In this document: positions 1,838 to 12,424 of the stretch, in pieces
How the letters are laid out: each line of letters starts with the position of its first letter
How positions within the stretch are numbered: the stretch's first letter is position 1
NCBI GenBank assembly: GCA_964523705.1
Contig: CAZFYA010000002.1
Coordinates: 47,114-111,113 of the forward strand
DNA: 64,000 nt
From: an uncultured Gammaproteobacteria bacterium
Lineage (GTDB): Bacteria; Patescibacteriota; Microgenomatia; Levybacterales; UBA12049
Direction: 5' to 3'
Notes under the pieces: model-generated
Seen by the model: the letters and a program-made list of their open reading frames with translations, nothing else
What the model was told of the DNA's origin: nothing
The model's database searches: none
Position numbers and translations under genes: made by a program

Positions 1838-2869
1838 TTATGAAGCTAAATATTTCTTAAGCTGTTCAACCATTTCTACAGGAGTAGGGTCTTGATTATA
1901 TTCAAGCGCAAGGTAGTATGAAGTCCAATCAGCAATAGTTATTGATGAAAACATCTTATAAAATACGTTATCTCCTTGCATGTTTATAATTTCCGATTCA
2001 ATATTGCTGTTTTTTAAAATATCAACTGTAGCTTGATATCTTTTAATATTTCTTGGGTCATCTTCATTATCCTTTAAAAACAATACGAAAAATTTTGATT
2101 GTGGATTTGTAAAACCAACCATTTCATTATGGTTTGCTTCAGGTAAAAAATTCCAAAATGCAGGGGTTTTAGCATTTTCGTTTATTTTTATCTTCCAAAC
2201 CATTGCAACTGGTTTATACTTAGGAGATGAATATATTACAATAGTTTTTCCTTTCATTTTCTTCGCAAGATCTTTTCCTTTACTTTCAAATAACCTCATG
2301 TCTTCATTAAGCTTATCGGTAAGAGAAAGTAGATTTTCACAAACATCTGGGATTAATCCTTGGTTTACTAATAACTGATACATTGCCGAAAAGAAATATC
2401 CAGTACCCATTCTTGGTTGATAATTTGGAAAGGGGAAGGGAAGTTTTATATGAGGGGCGTTATTTTTTTTACAAAGCTCTTCAAGCTTTCCTCCACTTGA
2501 TATGCCAATGTATTTAAGTTTATTACTTTCAGCTTCGTTTAATGCAGAAAGTGTTTCTTCAGTATTGCCAGAATATGAAGAAATAATGTTTAAACATTTT
2601 TTTGTATAAGCTTCAGGGGGTAAAACATAATACCTGTTTATATAAATTTCAAACGGATTATAATCTGGATTGTCTTTAAACAAGCTATTACAATATGTTC
2701 GTAGAAGATTAGCAGGAAGGGCTGATCCACCCATTCCTGAAATTGCAACGCTTGTAAAATCGCCATCAAGTTTTATGTTTTCAGCAAGTTTTAGTCCAAC
2801 CTTAAACTGATTAGGTGTATCAAGTATAAATTGCTTAAAATTTGACTTATCAACTATATTTTTATCCAT
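1838..2869 (-). CDS. Bifunctional phosphoglucose/phosphomannose isomerase (SIS-domain, archaeal-type PGI/PMI)
   Basis: 343 aa. ISGMGGS SIS-domain motif. Size and layout match the PGI/PMI family. Start overlaps the next gene by 8 nt (operon with phosphohexomutase). Confidence 0.6.
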   Translation of the reverse strand: MDKNIVDKSNFKQFILDTPNQFKVGLKLAENIKLDGDFTSVAISGMGGSALPANLLRTYCNSLFKDNPDYNPFEIYINRYYVLPPEAYTKKCLNIISSYSGNTEETLSALNEAESNKLKYIGISSGGKLEELCKKNNAPHIKLPFPFPNYQPRMGTGYFFSAMYQLLVNQGLIPDVCENLLSLTDKLNEDMRLFESKGKDLAKKMKGKTIVIYSSPKYKPVAMVWKIKINENAKTPAFWNFLPEANHNEMVGFTNPQSKFFVLFLKDNEDDPRNIKRYQATVDILKNSNIESEIINMQGDNVFYKMFSSITIADWTSYYLALEYNQDPTPVEMVEQLKKYLAS

Positions 2870-4946: not shown

Positions 4947-5324
4947 CTATTTTCTTTTCTTTTTATATTCTTTATATAATTTATTTGCTTCTTTTTGAAG
5001 ATGTCTTCCTCTTCCTCTATGGGGTAGAAGTGCACCTGAAAAATTTTTAGGGATATGCAGTAGTTCGTGAATTAAAACTTTTCGTTTTGATTCATCATCT
5101 AATTTATCAAAATATTTAGATAATACTTCAATAACGTAAGCAGGTCTTATGTCTAAAGCGTTTTGAAAAATCTTTGGAAAAGCCCAGATTCTTGCATACG
5201 CTCTTGATTTTGAACCGTTTGTCCTAAAGCAAAAAATCCTACTTTTAACAAGGTAATTAAGGTCTAAAATCTCAATTAGCTTATTCATTTCTTTTTGAAC
5301 GTCTGGTGCTTTTTCCCATTCCAT
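4947..5324 (-). CDS. HExxH zinc-metallopeptidase-like protein (SprT/WLM-like)
   Basis: 125 aa with IHELLHIP (HExxH) motif. Lys-rich C-terminus. Confidence 0.4.
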   Translation of the reverse strand: MEWEKAPDVQKEMNKLIEILDLNYLVKSRIFCFRTNGSKSRAYARIWAFPKIFQNALDIRPAYVIEVLSKYFDKLDDESKRKVLIHELLHIPKNFSGALLPHRGRGRHLQKEANKLYKEYKKKRK

Positions 5325-5408
5325 AATTAATTAGATATGTCCGTTTGTGATCTTTGTTGTTTTTTTATTTTTATCCATTTTGAGGCTTAGCTGGATAATT
5401 ATAACACA

Positions 5409-6557
5409 CTAGTTAATCTTTAAAATCCATTTTAAAAATATAATTACGTTATCAACGCTGTTAAAAAGTGGTGGTTCTTTTACTTCTTTTTTGAATATGC
5501 GAATAGGTAATTGCTTTAATGCTTTTTCTCCTAAAACTTTCTTAACCTCTGTTAACTGCGGACTGCCTTTTACTTTTTTAATTTTTTTTATAGAATTAAA
5601 AATTTCATTACCGTTTCCACTTTTATCAAACATAGAAAATTGGTCAAATGGTTCTGTCATTGCCTTTAAAATAAAAGGAGTAACTGCAACAACATCTTTT
5701 TCTCCCCATGCATTTTCAAATGCTTCATTATAGAATTTTCCAATCTGGCTATCAGTATATCTTTTTAATGTCCAGCCGGTTTCTGTAATAAAGATAGGTA
5801 AATCCTTATTGGTAAAATTTTTAATGTAGTTTTTCTCATACCAAAAACTGTAAACACTTTTATTTGTTGAGACTGACGGAAGAGTCGAAAAGCCAGGATT
5901 TGGATAGGAATGGCTTCCTAAGCCATCAATTTGATTAAAAATCCCCGGAACTGCTTTTTCCATTTCCCAAAAGTAGGCAAATTTATCCATTGCATCAGGA
6001 TAGTTATTTATTGATGCATTGTCCATTCCGGCTGAAATTATAAAAAAGTCAGGGCTTTTAGACTTAAATGCCGTTACTGCATAGCTTAAAAGCTCTGCGT
6101 ATTCCGATGGCTCTGGGCTTCCGCCCCACTCATCGCCTCTATTCACCTCATTAAAAACGACTACGTATCTATTTTTAGTTGGCCAATCAAGTGAGTTTAA
6201 AAAATTAGCAAAATCTAAAATTGATGTAAATTTTGGTTTTTCCCAAACCTTGGTATTAAAATAATCTCCATTTGTAGCAAGCCTTATAATTGGAATTAAA
6301 TGATAAGATCGGCACTCATCCATAAAGAATTGCCACTTTTCCAAGTCCTTATCATATGATTGAATAGGAATAGTAACATATCCCCAGTCTCCATCTTCTG
6401 AATTTATCATTTCCCTTGCTTCTTTTATTTCATCCGGAAAAAGTATATGAACGCCAATCTTGTTATTTGCTGTTGATAGGGGATCATATATTGCATTCAC
6501 CCTGGCCGGAAATAGAAGAACAAGTAAAAATAATAATATAAGTGTGATTCTTTTCAT
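5409..6557 (-). CDS. Secreted glycoside hydrolase, clan GH-A (GH5-like)
   Basis: 382 aa. N-terminal signal peptide MKRITLILLFLLVLLFPARVNA. VVFNEVNRGDEWGG (NE acid/base) and ITETGW (nucleophile Glu) motifs typical of clan A beta-glycanases. Confidence 0.5.
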   Translation of the reverse strand: MKRITLILLFLLVLLFPARVNAIYDPLSTANNKIGVHILFPDEIKEAREMINSEDGDWGYVTIPIQSYDKDLEKWQFFMDECRSYHLIPIIRLATNGDYFNTKVWEKPKFTSILDFANFLNSLDWPTKNRYVVVFNEVNRGDEWGGSPEPSEYAELLSYAVTAFKSKSPDFFIISAGMDNASINNYPDAMDKFAYFWEMEKAVPGIFNQIDGLGSHSYPNPGFSTLPSVSTNKSVYSFWYEKNYIKNFTNKDLPIFITETGWTLKRYTDSQIGKFYNEAFENAWGEKDVVAVTPFILKAMTEPFDQFSMFDKSGNGNEIFNSIKKIKKVKGSPQLTEVKKVLGEKALKQLPIRIFKKEVKEPPLFNSVDNVIIFLKWILKIN

Positions 6558-6640
6558 AGTTTAAATTATATCATTTAGTAAATTTAAATTGCTTTTTTAT
6601 TGATTTTAAATCATCACTTATTTTATAATTCACTCCTAAT

Positions 6641-7216
6641 ATGAATCACGAAGTATTTTTGGGTAAGGTAATTGATGGAAGGCCTTGTGGAATAAAAACT
6701 TCTGATCTTCAAAAAAAGGGCGAAAATCTTGTAATTCAAGGGTTATCCGGAGAGTCTGAAGTGGTCTATGCATCTGATGGGTCAACCTACTTTTCGCTAA
6801 AAGATAAAAGGGATGACCGATATAGAATTCATACAGGCGTTAAAAACTTTTTAGTTCAAAATATCATCCGATCTACTGTTGTTATTGACAATCAAAGAGT
6901 AAGACATCCAGACTTATTTGCAGGTCAACTAATTCGTCATTTTTTGCAAGAAGTTGAGTTAAAAATTGGTAAAGACAAAATGGTTATCTGTGAACATTGG
7001 TATGTACCTGATGCTATTCAAAATGGCATGTATAATGAACTATCTGATAATTTTGATGAATATACTCATGGAATTAATGTATTGGGATTATCAAAAACTG
7101 AAGCTGCATTATCTACATGGAGTGGTAAGCTATATTCCTCTCTTGGTTTTACAATAAATGATAAGGATATTCAAGAAGAAAACCCTCATTTTATAGTAGT
7201 TAAGTTTAGAAGATAA
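6641..7216 (+). CDS. Hypothetical protein (191 aa), higher GC than surroundings
   Basis: Uninterrupted ORF with no recognisable motifs. Convergent with the two-gene operon at 7325-7923. Part of the tRNA-Lys-adjacent islet. Confidence 0.45.
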   Translation: MNHEVFLGKVIDGRPCGIKTSDLQKKGENLVIQGLSGESEVVYASDGSTYFSLKDKRDDRYRIHTGVKNFLVQNIIRSTVVIDNQRVRHPDLFAGQLIRHFLQEVELKIGKDKMVICEHWYVPDAIQNGMYNELSDNFDEYTHGINVLGLSKTEAALSTWSGKLYSSLGFTINDKDIQEENPHFIVVKFRR

Positions 7217-7324
7217 TGTAAATTAAGATAATGGATAAATAAAATTCTATTAAAAAACATTATTTCGAGGCTAATCCGAAGCTGAGCGCCTCGGTCTAGA
7301 ACCGTTTAGTCGTTATAACTGAAT

Positions 7325-7588
7325 TTAAGAAACTGCGGCGTTTTGGAAAATAGTGCTGTATAAGAGCGCATCTTCCGCAGCTTTCAGCTTCTCTTTTTTA
7401 TCAAGTTTTTCCATTTCATTTAAAAATTTAATTAGATATGGTTTTAGCTCGTTATTATTTAACTCGTTCTTTCTTTTTAAAGCTTCTTCGTAAAATCTAT
7501 TAGCCATTATATTTGATCCTCTAAAATATCCAATTGCAACTCTTTTTAGATCTAAAGCCATTGCTCCCAATATTTGTTTGTTTTTCAT
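7325..7588 (-). CDS. Hypothetical protein (87 aa), second gene of an overlapping two-gene operon
   Basis: Start overlaps the stop of the upstream gene (ATGA at 7585-7588). Predicted helical. No motif recognised. Confidence 0.4.
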   Translation of the reverse strand: MKNKQILGAMALDLKRVAIGYFRGSNIMANRFYEEALKRKNELNNNELKPYLIKFLNEMEKLDKKEKLKAAEDALLYSTIFQNAAVS

Positions 7589-7923
7589 ATAAGTTTCCCA
7601 AAAAAATATTTAGTTAAATCTTCAAATCTTTTTCTTAAGGATGAATCTTGAATTTCATTGCTTGTATTATTATCCGAAGGTCGTATATTAATAAACGAAT
7701 TGCAATCAATTATTTTTGTTTCCAAATCAATCCCTCCGCCCCAAAGATTTGATTGATTAGATCCTTTTTCCAATAAAATCTTTTCTGAATTATAATGTCT
7801 GTCTGCTCCAGCAGAACAAATTTTACTTTCAATATCAATAACAGTTTTAATATACGAATCAAATAGTTCTCTTAGTTTTTCAATTTCTTCTTTCGTAAAT
7901 GGCTTAGATTTAGTAATAATCAT
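7585..7923 (-). CDS. Hypothetical protein (112 aa), first gene of an overlapping two-gene operon
   Basis: 4-nt overlap with the downstream 87-aa ORF, an arrangement typical of translationally coupled pairs (for example toxin-antitoxin modules). No family recognised. Confidence 0.4.
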   Translation of the reverse strand: MIITKSKPFTKEEIEKLRELFDSYIKTVIDIESKICSAGADRHYNSEKILLEKGSNQSNLWGGGIDLETKIIDCNSFINIRPSDNNTSNEIQDSSLRKRFEDLTKYFFGKLI

Positions 7924-8100
7924 TTAGAATATTATAACTCGGTTTAGAAGTTATTAAAAGAGCATGAATGTTAGTTTTATGGCTATAGTCCGTGTTTGCT
8001 GGGTGTTGTGGACTAGAACTAAACGTGAGCCGTACAGTACATTCGCTTTGCTCAGTATTTCACGTTGTTCAAGATTCGAGACGAGCTGTCTTCGCCATTA

Positions 8101-8137
8101 AAAAATCTCCTCAACCAAATGCTGGGAGATTTTTCGG
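8101..8137 (-). terminator. Rho-independent terminator hairpin just downstream of tRNA-Lys (bidirectional A-run/T-run)
   Basis: aaaaATCTCC-tcaaccaaatgct-GGGAGATtttt: a 6-7 bp stem flanked by an A-run and a T-run. Confidence 0.5.
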
Positions 8138-8209
8138 TGAGCCGTACAGGATTCGAACCTGTGACCAAGAGCTTAAAAGGCTCCTGCTCTACCGCTGAGC
8201 TAACGGCCC
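8138..8209 (-). tRNA. tRNA-Lys (anticodon UUU)
   Basis: Reverse complement is GGGCCGTTAGCTCAGCGGTAGAGCAGGAGCCTTTTAAGCTCTTGGTCACAGGTTCGAATCCTGTACGGCTCA. Cloverleaf with anticodon loop CTTTTAA. Confidence 0.85.
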
Positions 8210-8305
8210 GCAGGAAATAATTATACCAATCAAAGCTAGACTTGACAAGGATTTGAATAATCCCATAAACTAGAACTAATCTACATGATGAAAGGAGGTG
8301 AGAAC

Positions 8306-8965
8306 ATGACAGGAATCGGAGATACGATTGTTTCCTCCTTAAACGAAGGACTTCTGGCATTTGTTAACTTTATTCCAAAATTAGTCGCAGGTGCAATTGT
8401 AATACTTATTGGTATTATTGTTGCTTCAATTGTTAAACAACTTTTAATTGGTATTTTTAAAGCCTTAAAGATTGAAAAGTTTTTAAGAAAATACGGAGTA
8501 CCGGAATTAAAAGATGACTTTTCCTGGACTAATATACTGTCTGAATTAGTCAGATGGTTTATTATAGTATTATTCCTTATCCCAACTGCAGAAGTCTGGG
8601 GATTGCCAAGAGTTACATCAGTTCTAAATGAAGTATTGATGTATCTTCCAAATGTTTTTGTAGCAGCAATTATTGCCATGGTAGGGTTTGTATTCGCCAG
8701 ATTAACCCATGATGTTGTATTGGTCTCAATTAAAAATGTTGATCCAAGAACATCATCAGCAATTGCTTCTGTTGCAAGATGGGCGATTAATATATTTGTA
8801 ATATTGGCCGTTTTAACTCAACTTGGAGTAGCAGCTGATTTAATAAGAATACTATTCACTGGTCTTGTAGCAATGCTTGCTCTAGCCGGTGGAATTGCAT
8901 TTGGTCTTGGTGGACAAGGTGGAGCTAAAGAGGTCGTAGACGGATTAAAAAGAAAATTTAAGTAA
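8306..8965 (+). CDS. Conserved TM-helix-repeat membrane protein (mechanosensitive-channel-related family)
   Basis: Strong RBS aaaggaggtga 7 nt before ATG at 8306. Multiple TM helices and a Gly-rich C-terminus. The track ORF from 8285 is probably too long. Confidence 0.5.
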   Translation: MTGIGDTIVSSLNEGLLAFVNFIPKLVAGAIVILIGIIVASIVKQLLIGIFKALKIEKFLRKYGVPELKDDFSWTNILSELVRWFIIVLFLIPTAEVWGLPRVTSVLNEVLMYLPNVFVAAIIAMVGFVFARLTHDVVLVSIKNVDPRTSSAIASVARWAINIFVILAVLTQLGVAADLIRILFTGLVAMLALAGGIAFGLGGQGGAKEVVDGLKRKFK

Positions 8966-9011
8966 GAATTGTCTAAAAGTCAATTTTTAGATATAATACT
9001 TAAGTTTTAAT

Positions 9012-9085
9012 GCCGCGTTCGTCTAGTGGCCTAGGACATCGGGTTTTCAGCCCGAGAATCAGGGGTTCGAATCCCCTACGCGGTA
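9012..9085 (+). tRNA. tRNA-Glu (anticodon UUC)
   Basis: GCCGCGTTCGTCTAGTGGCCTAGGACATCGGGTTTTCAGCCCGAGAATCAGGGGTTCGAATCCCCTACGCGGTA. Typical tRNA-Glu D-arm TTCGTCTAG..GGCC.AGGAC. Anticodon loop TTTTCAG. Confidence 0.85.
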
Positions 9086-9093
9086 CATTTAAA

Positions 9094-9414
9094 TTAATCC
9101 TCTTTGTAAACGATTTGTGAAAGAAAATCCCTAACTCCAATAAGAGGTGAGAAAGATAAGTTAGATCTGTTTACAACGTTTTTATCTAAAATAATTTTTT
9201 TACTATCTCCATTTTTACTCAATATAAATGACACCCTATTGCTATCCTCCACAGTAATGATTTTAGGTCTACCAAGTAAAACATGATAGTTTTCTCGTTC
9301 GTTTTTACCAACTGATATTTCATCACTATGTATTGCTATTTTACTACCAGGTTTTAATGGTTTAGTTTGTACTACTTCTCCTGAAAACGTTCTTGTTTCA
9401 ATTTTTATTGACAT
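9094..9414 (-). CDS. Hypothetical protein (106 aa), divergent from uvrA
   Basis: ORF only; no motif recognised. Confidence 0.3.
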   Translation of the reverse strand: MSIKIETRTFSGEVVQTKPLKPGSKIAIHSDEISVGKNERENYHVLLGRPKIITVEDSNRVSFILSKNGDSKKIILDKNVVNRSNLSFSPLIGVRDFLSQIVYKED

Positions 9415-9529
9415 AGTGGGGAATTCTAATACTTTTTGTGTTTTTTGTCAAAGTACTAAAGAACCTACCTATCCCGTTGCTTATATTTCCGATTTCATAT
9501 ATAATATTACTTCGATTTTTATGCCTCTT

Positions 9530-12424
9530 ATGGATAAAATTATTGTAAAAGGAGCAAGAGAACATAATTTAAAAAATATTGACGTTGAAATACCAAAGAA
9601 TAAGCTAGTGGTCTTCACAGGTCTTTCGGGAAGCGGAAAATCCTCACTTGCATTTGACACTATTTATGCTGAGGGTCAGCGAAGATACGTTGAAAGTTTA
9701 TCCTCATATGCAAGACAGTTTTTAGGCATAATGAAAAAACCTGATGTTGATTTTATTGAAGGATTATCTCCGGCTATTTCAATTGATCAAAAATCAGCCT
9801 CACATAATCCAAGAAGCACTGTTGGAACAGTAACTGAAATCTATGACTATTTAAGACTACTTTTTGCAAGAATCGGCCATCCGCATTGTCCAAAATGCGG
9901 CAGCGAGATATCCCATTTATCAAAAGAGCAGATTGTTAAGGCAATTTTTGAATTACTTGATAAAACGAATAGCCAAAAATTAAAACTTTTAATTTTAGCT
10001 CCAATTGTAAAGGACAGAAAAGGGGAGTACACTGAATTATTTTCAGACCTTAAAAAGCGGGGATATAAAAAGGCAAGAGTTGATAACCACATTTACGGAC
10101 TTGATGAAGATTTTATCTTAATTAAAACCAATAAGCATACAATAGAGGCTGTAATTGATGAAATAATCTTATCTAAAACAACTGATAAGCAAAGACTATC
10201 AACTGATGTTGAGCAGGGACTAAAACTTGGAAACGGTGAGATAATTATCTCAATTATTAAGGATAAAGGTTTTTCTCTTCCTGAAAGGGCTAAAAAAATG
10301 GAAGATGAGCTGTTCAGTGAAAAGTTTGCCTGTCCTAAATGTAATATTTCACTTCCTGATATTGAGCCGAGAATGTTTTCATTTAACACGCCTCATGGCG
10401 CATGCCCTAGATGTAATGGCTTAGGAACAATTTTAACAATTGACAAGGATTTAATTTTTAATGACAACTTAACCATTCAGGAAGGCGGAATAATGCCGTT
10501 CTCAAATCTTTTTGAACATGAAACCTGGTTTACAAGAACACTTAAGACATTTTGCAATGAAAATAATATCCCACTTAGCAAAAGACTAAATGAGTTTACC
10601 AATAAGCAAAAGGAGCTATTACTAAATGGCACAGGAGAACAAGTTTATGAAGTTGAGGGAGAGAACAGATGGGGCAAAAAAACTACAATTTATGAGGAGT
10701 TTAACGGAATTGTAGGAGAATTAATGCGAAGACACAGCGAAACTGAATCAAGTTATGCCCGCAATTTTTATGAGAAATATATGCGTTATGAAGTATGTCC
10801 CTTATGTCTTGGAGCAAGACTAAAAAAAGAAGCATTAGGAGTAACAATTAATAACAAATCTATTATTGATGTTTCAGACATGTCCATTGATAATACCTTT
10901 GAGTTTATAAATACACTACCAGCAAAAATTTCAAAAAGGGAAGAGGAAATAGGAAAATTAATTGTTAAGGAAGTAAAACAAAGACTAACCTTTCTTTTAG
11001 ATGTTGGGCTTGATTATTTAACCTTATCAAGAGGAGCACAAACATTAGCTGGAGGAGAAGCGCAAAGAATAAGACTTGCCTCACAAATCGGAAGCGGACT
11101 AACAGGCGTATTATATGTATTAGATGAACCCTCAATTGGTCTTCATCCAAAAGACAACAAAAAATTAATTGATACCTTAAAAAAACTAAGAGATTTGGGA
11201 AATACAGTTTTAGTTGTTGAGCATGATGAAGAGACAATGCTTGAATCAGATTATATTTTTGATTTCGGGCCAAAGGCCGGGGAAAAGGGCGGAGAAATTA
11301 TTGCTAAAGGAACAGTATCTGAAATAAAAAATAATAATAATTCATTAACCGGAAAATACTTAACCAGTAAGGCAAAAATTGATATTTATAAAGACAAAGA
11401 TAAAGAAATCTCATCGCTTGATGGCTTAAAAAAACTAACAATTTATAAAGCAAGTGAGCATAATTTAAAAAATATTGATGTGTCTTTTCCTTTAGGCAAG
11501 TTTACAGTTGTTACAGGCGTATCAGGCAGCGGTAAATCAACTCTTATAAATGACATTTTATACCACGCATTAATGCAGAAAAAAAATCCGTATCATAGGC
11601 AAAAACCGGGAAAGTTTTTAGATATTCAGGGACATGAACTGATAAAAAACGTCTATATGATTGATCAGTCTCCAATCGGAAGAACACCAAGAAGTAATCC
11701 CGCAACTTATACCGGAATTTTTACATATATCAGAGACTTATTTGCTCAAACTAAAGATGCAAAAATAAGAGGTTATGGACCTGGAAGGTTTTCTTTTAAT
11801 GTAAAGGGAGGAAGATGTGAAGCCTGTGAGGGCGAGGGAAGAATAAAAATTGAGATGCAGTTTCTACCGGATGTCTACATAACCTGCGAGGTCTGTAACG
11901 GCAAGATGTATAACGATGAGGTTTTACAAGTCACATTTAGTGGTAAGAATATTGCCGAGGTACTAAATATGAGTGTTTCTGAAGCGTTAAGCTTTTTTTC
12001 ATTTTCAGCGCCACTGTCACATAAGTTAAAAACCTTAAATGATGTAGGCTTATCATATATTAAACTTGGTCAGCCGGCTCCTACCTTATCAGGCGGGGAA
12101 GCACAAAGGGTAAAACTGGCAACAGAACTTTCCAAAAAAGGCCAAAATGCGCTTTACTTGCTGGATGAACCAACAACCGGCCTTCACTTTGCAGATTTGG
12201 AAAAATTACTTTTAGTCCTTAGAAGATTAACTGATCAGAATAATACTGTAATTGTAATTGAGCATAATTTAGATGTTATTAAAAATGCAGATTACATTAT
12301 TGATCTTGGACCAAATGGGGGAGAAAAAGGCGGAGAAATTACTGCCAAAGGAACTCCTTTAGAAATTGTTAAAAATCCAAAGTCTTATACAGGTAAGTTT
12401 TTAAAATCCCACTTAATTTTTTAA
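9530..12424 (+). CDS. uvrA: Excinuclease ABC subunit A
   Basis: [64 protein letters not shown] matches the canonical UvrA N-terminus. Two ABC ATPase modules ([18 protein letters not shown]) and zinc-finger Cys clusters. The track ORF start at 9416 is an upstream extension; the true start is probably 9530 (or 9521). Confidence 0.95.

What the first reader, a model, noticed from the sequence alone, without database searches (positions are those of the whole stretch)
6641..8209. Higher-GC islet of three unknown genes beside tRNA-Lys(UUU), with a 13-nt duplication of the tRNA 3' end
The 13-mer gtgagccgtacag occurs twice: at the 3' end of tRNA-Lys (8137-8149) and again 112 nt away (8025-8037). A chance 13-nt match in 64 kb is unlikely (on the order of 1e-3). 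That is the signature of an att-core direct repeat left by integration at a tRNA 3' end. Immediately beyond it lie two overlapping ORFs of unknown function (7585-7923 and 7325-7588, a 4-nt ATGA overlap as in TA modules) and a convergent 191-aa ORF (6641-7216). Their GC is visibly higher than the flanking genes. A degenerate copy of the conserved upstream element with a terminator-like hairpin sits between the convergent genes. No integrase is present, so this would be a decayed remnant or cargo of an integrative element.
Basis: partly seen in the sequence, partly recalled or inferred. Interest (0 to 1): 0.6.

Follow-up and report, generated by a model that had tools for sequence, protein, structure and literature searches.

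The report
tRNA-Lys integration scar, native neighbour genes
A 13-base copy of the end of a lysine tRNA gene in a Levybacteria (candidate phyla radiation, CPR) genome is most likely the scar of an old site-specific insertion, but the three neighbouring genes are resident genes with native composition, not foreign cargo, so the finding is largely ordinary.

Summary
The 13-mer GTGAGCCGTACAG does occur twice, at 8025-8037 and 8137-8149. It is the 3' end of tRNA-Lys(UUU), and no copy is expected by chance. The ORFs and the ATGA overlap are also real. The claim of higher GC is wrong: the three ORFs have GC 0.33, 0.30 and 0.27, against 0.32 +/- 0.03 for genes of the window, and their codon usage is native.

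In a tRNA-integrated element the cargo lies between the tRNA and its displaced fragment. Here that interval is only 99 nt and holds a terminator. All three ORFs lie outside it.

ORF 7585-7923 (Pfam DUF5674) and ORF 7325-7588 form a two-gene operon kept at 60-85% identity in about 70 Levybacteria loci. That distribution is unlike a toxin-antitoxin pair. ORF191 is a lineage-specific orphan under purifying selection (dN/dS 0.13).

The locus is nevertheless a rearrangement hotspot. The sister genome (L025) lacks 7223-8136 entirely, so ORF191 sits 7 nt from the tRNA. The next relatives carry dus and greA in this slot, and one of them (L003) has its own 13/14-nt copy of the tRNA end.

Best reading: a decayed integration scar next to a relocated native operon. 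Interest is low to moderate.

The parts
8136..8209 (-). tRNA-Lys(UUU) gene. Its promoter-like site is TTGTCA-17-TATAAT at 8248-8220.
   Evidence: ARAGORN; Rfam tRNA 72.8 bits; promoter scan 11/12 matches.
8137..8149 (-). Proximal copy of the 13-mer. [quoted passage not shown] I read it as the attL-side core.
   Evidence: Homology with the sister genome L025 resumes exactly at 8137.
8025..8037 (-). Distal copy of the 13-mer. I read it as the displaced tRNA 3' fragment (attR-side core).
   Evidence: 0 expected. In one search, 0 of 200 shuffles reached its score. There is no significant similarity to the tRNA beyond the 13 nt (p=0.2).
8038..8099 (-). A 62-nt spacer of unique sequence between the repeats. 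I read it as a remnant of the integrated element. It holds a weak T-loop-like stretch at 8067-8082.
   Evidence: family D11, 85% over 13 nt. One search found no significant similarity to the tRNA or to the L003 segment. One search found no coding remnant.
8101..8134 (-). Intrinsic-terminator hairpin directly after tRNA-Lys, with a 10-bp outer stem, a U-run after it and an A-run before it. It lies inside the interval bounded by the repeats.
   Evidence: RNA fold -19.3 kcal/mol, z -4.55, 0 of 200 shuffles as good. It is absent from L025.
7585..7923 (-). DUF5674 family gene (112 aa), first gene of a conserved two-gene operon. A TATAAT box at 7931-7936 lies 7 nt before the ATG.
7325..7588 (-). 87-aa four-helix-bundle protein, the constant downstream partner of DUF5674. 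Start and stop overlap as ATGA.
7972..8001 (-). Conserved non-coding block CAGCAAACACGGACTATAGCCATAAAACTA upstream of DUF5674. It travels with the operon in other genomes.
   Evidence: also present in L021-23, L027, L028, L036, L055.
8002..8024 (-). Degenerate copy of the 38-nt element (GTTTAGTTCTAGTCC...), directly abutting the distal 13-mer.
   Evidence: (D18); read from the sequence.
7280..7317 (-). 38-nt repeat element TATAACGACTAAACGGTTCTAGACCGAGGCGCTCAGC, 7 nt after the ORF87 stop codon. It is found only around DUF5674 operons and always in the same orientation as the operon.
   Evidence: nhmmer E 1.6e-9. About 15 distinct copies in about 11 genomes, none elsewhere in 673 kb.
7266..7293 (-). 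Hairpin CGAGGC...GCCTCG between the convergent genes, followed on the minus strand by a T-rich tail. It is a probable terminator of the operon and overlaps the 3' end of the 38-nt element.
   Evidence: Fold of 7235-7325(-) gives -19.7 kcal/mol, z -2.0. The strict terminator scan did not call it.
6641..7216 (+). ORF191, a lineage-specific orphan protein gene. Its promoter-like site is TTGATT-18-TATAAT at 6600-6629.
   Evidence: Only 3 proteins in 5.8 billion. 81% identical copy in L025 with dN/dS 0.13. No match in Pfam, NCBIfam, PADLOC, PHROGs or PDB sequences.
7223..8136 (.). 914-nt segment present in the window and absent from the sister genome L025. It holds the operon with its flanks, the distal 13-mer, the spacer and the terminator.
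   Evidence: blastn breakpoints: L025 263-2115 matches window 5362-7222, and L025 2117-3657 matches window 8137-9675. L025 sequence.

Best explanation
The window comes from a Candidatus Levybacteria (Patescibacteria/CPR) genome. The two 13-mers are the regenerated 3' end of tRNA-Lys(UUU) and its displaced fragment. They were left by a site-specific integration whose crossover lay at the junction of the T-stem and the acceptor stem.

Nearly all of the integrated element has since been deleted. What remains is the 99 nt between the copies (8038-8136), and this remnant now supplies the terminator of the tRNA.

The three ORFs are not its cargo. They lie on the chromosomal side of the displaced fragment.
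- DUF5674 and ORF87 form a native operon that is conserved across Levybacteria. It is transcribed from a TATAAT box 7 nt before its ATG. I infer that it encodes a small enzyme-like alpha/beta protein and a four-helix-bundle partner.
- In this lineage the operon was relocated, as a unit of about 0.8 kb with its conserved non-coding flanks, to the position directly behind tRNA-Lys.
- ORF191 is an older, lineage-restricted orphan gene. It replaced the dus-greA genes that more distant relatives carry in this slot.

Shown: the repeat, its geometry, the native composition, the conservation of the operon, and the presence/absence difference with relatives.

Inferred: that an integrase made the repeat, the order of events, and the biochemical roles of the proteins.
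For: Repeat:
- Exact 13/13, co-oriented, an end fragment of the tRNA, 3' fragment downstream; 0 expected by chance.
- Identity stops abruptly. The spacer against the tRNA gives p=0.2. This fits a recombination core better than a decayed duplication.
- Its start, 4 nt inside the T-stem, corresponds to the 'junction between T and acceptor stems' class of crossover described for tDNA islands (PMC4383910).
- An independent parallel exists in L003: GTGAGCCGTATAGG, 427 nt downstream of its tRNA-Lys, starts at the same tRNA position (p about 0.015) and brackets an orphan 94-aa ORF. The enclosed DNA is unrelated to that of the window.

Empty site:
- In L025 the stop codon of ORF191 is 7 nt from the tRNA, and homology resumes exactly at 8137.

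Native genes:
- GC, GC3 and codon scores.
- DUF5674 has 3340 homologues and ORF87 has 370. They are adjacent in nearly all of about 75 loci, in many contexts.
- 42 invariant residues among 32 aligned DUF5674 homologues (75-84% identical to the query).
- ORF191 has dN/dS 0.13.

Outgroups:
- L003 and L004 carry dus and greA between the 382-aa gene and tRNA-Lys.

Hotspot:
- In other Levybacteria a serine-recombinase-domain ORF abuts tRNA-Lys (L016), and GIY-YIG ORFs abut tRNA-Lys (L004, L014) and tRNA-Gln (L022).
Against: - There is no integrase or recognisable element gene between the repeats. The enclosed segment is only 99 nt, far below the 2-kb minimum used by island finders.
- A 13-nt core is short, so a microhomology-mediated event cannot be excluded.
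- The DNA missing in L025 is 914 nt, not the 112 nt that a simple att x att excision would remove. No copy of the 13-mer lies at the left junction (7223). At least two events are therefore needed, and their order is inferred by parsimony from two outgroups only.
- I could not check whether the genomes of L025 and L003 carry the operon elsewhere, so 'relocation' is not shown directly.
Confidence: 0.55

Rival explanations
1. The first reader's model, in its only geometrically possible form. Two elements integrated in tandem at tRNA-Lys. The outer, older one carried DUF5674-ORF87 (and perhaps ORF191) as cargo and has lost its integrase and its outer repeat. The inner one is the 99-nt remnant.
For: [quoted passage not shown]
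- The operon moves between contexts together with its conserved flanks.
- One homologue lies 315 nt from a tyrosine integrase on an IMG/VR contig.
- Tandem arrays at tDNAs are a known phenomenon.
Against: - No third copy of the tRNA end lies at or near 7223 or 6560-6640.
- Composition is native or even lower in GC.
- The operon is near-universal and strongly conserved in the clade, and is mostly not next to tRNAs: about 4 of about 55 distinct contexts, roughly the background rate.
- ORF191 is present in L025 without the operon.
- No viral relative of ORF191 was found.
Confidence: 0.15
2. The 13-mer copy was not made by an integrase. It is a by-product of illegitimate or microhomology-mediated recombination, or of replication slippage, during the rearrangement that brought the operon next to the tRNA. 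Alternatively it is what remains of a tandem duplicate of the tRNA.
For: - No integrase is present. The enclosed segment is tiny and holds only a terminator.
- The distal copy plus its spacer (8025-8099, about 72-75 nt) is close to one tRNA length (74 nt), and there is a T-loop-like 13-mer at 8067-8079.
- Levybacteria tRNA ends are breakpoints for insertions without long repeats. In L021 against L022 only CAG is shared at the junction.
Against: - The spacer shows no significant similarity to the tRNA (p=0.2). Uniform decay would not leave 13/13 intact.
- L003 has a parallel copy that starts at the same nucleotide and encloses unrelated DNA. That points to a site-specific mechanism.
Confidence: 0.2
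3. DUF5674 and ORF87 are a toxin-antitoxin or other addiction or defence module, as the ATGA overlap suggested.
For: - Two small genes with overlapping stop and start.
- In one context the pair is next to an AbiEii toxin gene.
Against: - No match in PADLOC, PHROGs, NCBIfam or Pfam to toxin or antitoxin families.
- The pair is conserved at 60-85% (DUF5674) and 35-80% (ORF87) identity across about 70 loci, always adjacent and in the same order. That is unlike the patchy, fast-evolving distribution of TA pairs.
- ORF87 is a plain four-helix bundle without an HTH or RHH DNA-binding fold.
- DUF5674 has many invariant polar residues, as in an enzyme.
Confidence: 0.05

Closest known systems
Genomic islands and prophages integrated in tRNA genes (the tDNA plus displaced tDNA fragment signature; Islander, PMC4383910)
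   Same: A full tRNA gene and a co-oriented copy of its 3' end downstream. The copy is an end fragment that starts near the junction of the T-stem and the acceptor stem. A related genome has the site without the copy.
   Different: The enclosed DNA is 99 nt, with no integrase and no cargo. The DNA missing from the relative is larger than the interval bounded by the repeats.
Type II toxin-antitoxin operons
   Same: Two small co-directional genes with a 4-nt overlap.
   Different: No family match. The pair is near-universal and strongly conserved within the clade. The partner has no DNA-binding antitoxin fold.
Pfam PF18924 (DUF5674)
   Same: ORF 7585-7923 matches the family across its full length, well above the gathering score.
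Integron gene cassettes and attC arrays (compared only for the 38-nt element)
   Same: Short co-oriented repeats that flank small gene units, sometimes several in a row (L039, L045), with presence/absence of units between near-identical genomes (L021 against L022).
   Different: The attC core motifs (RYYYAAC / GTTRRRY) and the bipartite imperfect palindrome are not present. No integron integrase was seen. The element is 38 nt with a central GGTCTAGACC.
GIY-YIG endonuclease genes inserted beside tRNA genes
   Same: In relatives, small selfish-looking ORFs sit directly at tRNA-Lys or tRNA-Gln. In L004 the insertion is bracketed by a duplicated tRNA fragment.
   Different: The window has no GIY-YIG ORF or recognisable remnant of one in 7900-8140. 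The L004 duplication is of the 5' part of the tRNA, not the 3' end.

Membership tests
tDNA-integrated island or prophage (Islander criteria) | A fragment of the tRNA gene elsewhere in the replicon that is an end fragment, not an internal piece | tested here: met
   The 13-mer covers the last 13 nt of the tRNA up to the base after the discriminator.
tDNA-integrated island or prophage (Islander criteria) | The 3' fragment lies downstream of the tRNA and in the same orientation | tested here: met
tDNA-integrated island or prophage (Islander criteria) | An integrase gene inside or overlapping the interval between the tRNA and the fragment | tested here: not met
   The interval 8038-8136 is 99 nt with no ORF. 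None of the ORFs between 2862 and 12424 that were scanned against Pfam matches an integrase family.
tDNA-integrated island or prophage (Islander criteria) | Island length of 2-200 kb with cargo genes between the repeats | tested here: not met
   The repeats are 112 nt apart. The three ORFs lie outside the interval.
tDNA-integrated island or prophage (Islander criteria) | An unoccupied site in a related genome | tested here: met
   L025 has the tRNA with no second copy, and ORF191 lies 7 nt away. The missing DNA is 914 nt, not 112 nt.
tDNA-integrated island or prophage (Islander criteria) | Composition that deviates from the host | tested here: not met
   GC, GC3 and codon log-likelihood of the three ORFs lie within the window's distribution or below it.
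Type II toxin-antitoxin module | Sequence or profile homology of either gene to a known toxin or antitoxin family | tested here: not met
   Pfam, NCBIfam, PADLOC and PHROGs gave only DUF5674, plus sub-threshold noise for ORF87.
Type II toxin-antitoxin module | Antitoxin with a DNA-binding fold (HTH, RHH, AbrB) | tested here: not met
Type II toxin-antitoxin module | Toxicity of one partner that the other neutralises | not testable with these tools
   This needs expression experiments.
Pfam PF18924 DUF5674 | Full-length match above the gathering score | tested here: met
   82.9 bits against a cutoff of 27; residues 7-103 on profile positions 5-105 of 109.
Integron cassette / attC (for the 38-nt element) | R''/L''...L'/R' imperfect inverted repeats with RYYYAAC and GTTRRRY cores, 57-141 nt | tested here: not met
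   I inspected the aligned copies. The motif definition is from my own knowledge. No matching cores were seen. There is no consistent single-strand fold.
Phosphohistidine phosphatase (PHPT1-like) fold, for DUF5674 | Significant structural superposition and a conserved catalytic His | tested here: inconclusive

The most novel reading that the evidence does not exclude
The DUF5674-ORF87 operon and some neighbouring small gene units in Levybacteria may be mobile cassettes. They would be bounded by a co-oriented 38-nt site (TATAAYGAC..GGTCTAGACC..GCTCAGC) and inserted at the 3' ends of tRNA genes (tRNA-Lys here, tRNA-Gln in L021/L022). That would be an undescribed site-specific cassette system in a CPR lineage. 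On this reading the 13-mer scar and the 914-nt presence/absence difference are two traces of its activity.
Probability: 0.1. Interest if true: 0.7.

Novelty: new member of a known kind. Interest (0 to 1): 0.27.

Why it matters
The result adds a documented case of tRNA 3' ends acting as recombination and insertion hotspots in a Levybacteria (CPR) genome, and a worked example of the rule that cargo lies between the tRNA and its fragment, not beyond it.

It gives the uncharacterised DUF5674 family a constant partner protein and conserved flanking DNA. These are concrete handles for working out what this widespread CPR operon does.

It also flags a 38-nt repeat associated with the operon, which could be a regulatory or a recombination site.

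None of this changes current understanding unless the cassette reading proves true.

Tried and rejected
- tRNA pseudogene or tandem duplicate. Local alignment of the spacer 8038-8110 with the tRNA is no better than shuffles (p=0.2).
- Shared ancestry of the window's 99-nt remnant with the 425-nt segment of L003. No similarity (p=0.4).
- A retroelement primer-binding site. The plus-strand 13-mer is complementary to the tRNA end, but it lacks the TGG needed to pair with the CCA end (read; PBS rule from my own knowledge).
- A known RNA in the GC-rich intergenic DNA 7924-8135 or in the 38-nt element. No Rfam match at E<=1 and no consistent fold.
- The 38-nt element as a decayed tRNA 3' half. nhmmer against all 17 tRNAs of the window found nothing.
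- Enrichment of the operon next to tRNAs. About 4 of about 55 distinct contexts, close to the background rate.
- Phage origin. No viral relative of ORF191. One IMG/VR contig carries a DUF5674 homologue at its very end.
- Viral attP search. The 17-mer of the tRNA end occurs in 9 viral contigs. Most are chance hits in coding DNA. Two are 45-nt partial tRNA-Lys halves that are not specific to Levybacteria.
- A GIY-YIG or other coding remnant in 7900-8140. None.
- Sequence search of the three proteins against PDB chains. Nothing significant.
- Literature on DUF5674. No paper holds the term.
- Locating the operon in the genome of L025. Two look-ups of the most similar homologues led to other assemblies.
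Full report
**What is in the sequence.** tRNA-Lys(UUU) lies at 8136-8209 on the minus strand (ARAGORN; Rfam 72.8 bits). The 13-mer GTGAGCCGTACAG occurs exactly twice in the 64 kb, at 8137-8149 and 8025-8037. Shuffles give 0.00 expected matches even with one mismatch allowed. Read on the tRNA strand it is CUGU-ACGGCUC-A-C: the last 4 nt of the T-stem, the acceptor strand, the discriminator and one C. The three ORFs and the ATGA overlap at 7585-7588 are as described.

Between the two copies lie 99 nt. They consist of a strong hairpin followed by a U-run directly after the tRNA (8101-8134; -19.3 kcal/mol, z -4.55) and 62 nt of unique sequence.

**The GC claim fails.** Sliding GC over 6600-7950 is 0.28-0.34, like the flanks. 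The three genes have GC 0.328, 0.303 and 0.268, against 0.322 +/- 0.028 for 65 ORFs of the window. Their GC3 and codon usage are unremarkable or on the low-GC side. Only the tRNA and the intergenic DNA (7950-8250) reach 0.44.

**Organism and comparative frame.** A scan of species-representative genomes with the 226-aa membrane protein next to the tRNA (8285-8965) returned 15 loci, most of them from Candidatus Levybacteria or Patescibacteria MAGs. The block tRNA-Lys / 226-aa gene / tRNA-Glu is conserved in 13 of them. What lies downstream of tRNA-Lys differs in every one.
- The two relatives that share the window's wider synteny (L003, 93% identity for the 226-aa protein; L004, 72%) carry dus-like and greA-like genes between the 382-aa gene and the tRNA.
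- None of the 15 loci has ORF191, ORF87 or DUF5674 at this position.

**The sister genome.** ORF191 has only three relatives among 5.8 billion protein clusters. The 81%-identical one sits on contig L025 (GCA_964408565.1). There the order is 382-aa gene, ORF191, seven bases (tataaaa), tRNA-Lys, 226-aa gene (97% identical), tRNA-Glu and uvrA.
- blastn places the breakpoints at window 7222|7223 and 8136|8137.
- The window therefore has 914 extra bases: the operon with its flanks, the distal 13-mer, the spacer and the terminator.
- The right-hand breakpoint coincides with the edge of the 13-mer.
- ORF191 is under purifying selection between the two genomes (dN/dS 0.13), so it is a real gene. It has no detectable family.

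**The two overlapping genes.** ORF 7585-7923 is a full-length member of Pfam DUF5674 (E 2e-23).
- It has 3340 homologues at E<=0.001, the best 120 at 75-85% identity. These correspond to 648 clusters at 50% identity, almost all stand-alone proteins of about 110 aa.
- ORF87 has 370 homologues.
- In about 75 loci gathered from genomes and metagenomes, the ORF87 homologue lies immediately downstream of DUF5674 in nearly all.
- The surrounding genes differ: rpoB, peptide deformylase, NUDIX with GIY-YIG, AbiEii and others.
- A tRNA lies within 300 nt upstream in only about four distinct contexts (Lys here, Asn, Gln, Arg). That is close to what gene density predicts.
- DUF5674 has 42 invariant residues, including C36, R42, WGGG 61-64 and NSFIN-R 75-81.
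- ORF87 is a confidently modelled four-helix bundle with only generic matches.
- Neither gene matches defence, phage or NCBI families.
- This is the profile of a conserved lineage-wide operon, not of a toxin-antitoxin pair or foreign cargo.

**Geometry.** In tRNA-integrated elements the island lies between the regenerated tRNA and its displaced fragment (PMC4383910). Here that interval is 99 nt and the three ORFs lie beyond the fragment. No further copy of the tRNA end exists near 7223 or 6560-6640.

**Is the repeat an integration scar?** Four observations favour it.
- Identity is perfect for 13 nt and then vanishes. The spacer against the tRNA is no better than shuffles (p=0.2), which argues against a decayed tandem tRNA copy.
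- The copy is an end fragment, downstream and co-oriented. It begins near the T-stem/acceptor junction, one of the recognised crossover positions.
- Among 15 tRNA-Lys loci, only the window and L003 have a significant downstream copy. The L003 copy (GTGAGCCGTATAGG, 13/14, p about 0.015) starts at the same tRNA position, extends degenerately into a T-arm-like stretch, and encloses an orphan 94-aa ORF unrelated to the window's spacer. The same site has therefore been hit at least twice.
- L025 lacks the copy.

Against it: no integrase, a very small enclosed segment, and a short core. I put the scar reading at about 0.55 and a non-integrase origin at about 0.2.

**Order of events (inferred).** On the standard model, the DNA outside the displaced fragment is the former trailer of the tRNA. 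Just before the integration, the operon (starting GTTTAGTTCTAGTCC...) therefore already abutted tRNA-Lys.
- The outgroups L003 and L004 lack the operon here, and L025 lacks it too. Parsimony therefore favours arrival of the operon in the window's lineage after its split from L025, followed by the integration and the decay of the element.
- The alternative, loss in L025, needs one more step.
- ORF191 replaced dus-greA earlier, in the common ancestor of the window and L025.

**The 'conserved upstream element'.** The sequence after ORF87 (7280-7317, minus strand) is TATAACGACTAAACGGTTCTAGACCGAGGCGCTCAGC. It is one copy of a 38-nt element.
- nhmmer finds about 15 distinct copies in about 11 genomes. 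All are in loci that carry the operon, all are in the operon's orientation, and they often lie on both sides of it (L021, L027) or in short arrays (L039, L045).
- No copy occurs in the roughly 270 kb of other Levybacteria DNA held, nor elsewhere in the window.
- A degenerate copy (8002-8024) and a conserved block (7972-8001) precede DUF5674 in the window.
- The element is not tRNA-derived, has no Rfam match and no consistent RNA fold.
- Its central palindrome GGTCTAGACC suggests a protein-binding site.
- L021 differs from the near-identical L022 by a 1781-nt insert. The insert begins exactly at the 3' end of tRNA-Gln and ends with this element. Identity is 99.95% on one side and 93.5% on the other.
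- This leaves open, at low probability, a cassette-type mobility system.

**Verdict.** This is a new instance of a known kind of feature, of low to moderate interest. The DUF5674-ORF87 operon and its 38-nt element are the parts most worth further work.

Noticed in passing
window 7280-7317(-) and 8002-8024(-); L021 5884-5921 and 6601-6638; L027 270 and 998; L039 865, 1139, 1989, 3873; L045 2564, 3869, 4699: A 38-nt repeat (TATAAYGAC..GGTCTAGACC..GCTCAGC) occurs only around DUF5674-ORF87 operons. It is always co-oriented with the operon and sometimes forms short arrays that separate small gene units. It has no Rfam match, no stable fold and is not tRNA-derived.
   Followed up: partly
L021 4136-5916 against L022 5920|5921: Two near-identical genomes differ by a 1781-nt insert (two orphan ORFs plus the 38-nt element) that begins exactly at the 3' end of tRNA-Gln(CUG). 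Identity is 99.95% on one side and 93.5% on the other, so the tRNA marks a recombination boundary.
   Followed up: partly
L003 9413-9435, 9532-9816, 9853-9925: The relative L003 has its own degenerate copy of the tRNA-Lys 3' end (13/14, then a T-arm-like stretch with compensating changes), directly after greA. It encloses a 94-aa orphan ORF.
   Followed up: partly
L004 9538-9610, 9590-9850(-), 9860-9905: An 86-aa GIY-YIG ORF sits upstream of tRNA-Lys and is bracketed by a duplicate of the 5' part of the tRNA, itself interrupted by a 17-nt hairpin. GIY-YIG ORFs also abut tRNA-Lys in L014 (1-310) and tRNA-Gln in L022 (5541-5789).
   Followed up: partly
L016 714-2516(+), tRNA-Lys 2413-2486(-): A 600-aa ORF with a serine 'Recombinase' domain (PF07508, E 1.5e-6) runs up to and over the 3' end of tRNA-Lys(UUU). 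The contig ends 2.4 kb beyond.
   Followed up: no
L108 3727-4686(-), 5001-5339(+): On an IMG/VR contig a tyrosine integrase gene lies 315 nt upstream of a DUF5674 homologue, which is at the very end of the contig. There is no tRNA between them.
   Followed up: no
window 7924-7936 and the equivalent positions in about 60 loci: Nearly all DUF5674 genes have a TATAAT-like box 6-9 nt before the start codon and no room for a ribosome-binding site. This suggests leaderless transcripts.
   Followed up: no
window 5324-5409 against L003 6186-6722, L004 2178-2708, L010 8669-9187: Relatives carry an RNaseH-like gene (PF04308, about 175 aa) between the metallopeptidase gene and the 382-aa gene. The window lacks it.
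   Followed up: no
L005, L006, L007 against the window: In several Levybacteria the block tRNA-Lys / 226-aa gene / tRNA-Glu is inverted relative to uvrA and the pgm-holA-peptidase cluster.
   Followed up: no
window 6641-7216 and 8285-8965 against L025: Synonymous divergence differs 2.6-fold across the tRNA (ORF191 dS 0.82; 226-aa gene dS 0.31). This could reflect a recombination boundary or different constraint.
   Followed up: no
window 8242-8285: The 11-mer ACTAGAACTAA occurs both upstream of the 226-aa gene (8269-8279) and in the degenerate element upstream of DUF5674 (8012-8022). The count is within chance expectation.
   Followed up: yes
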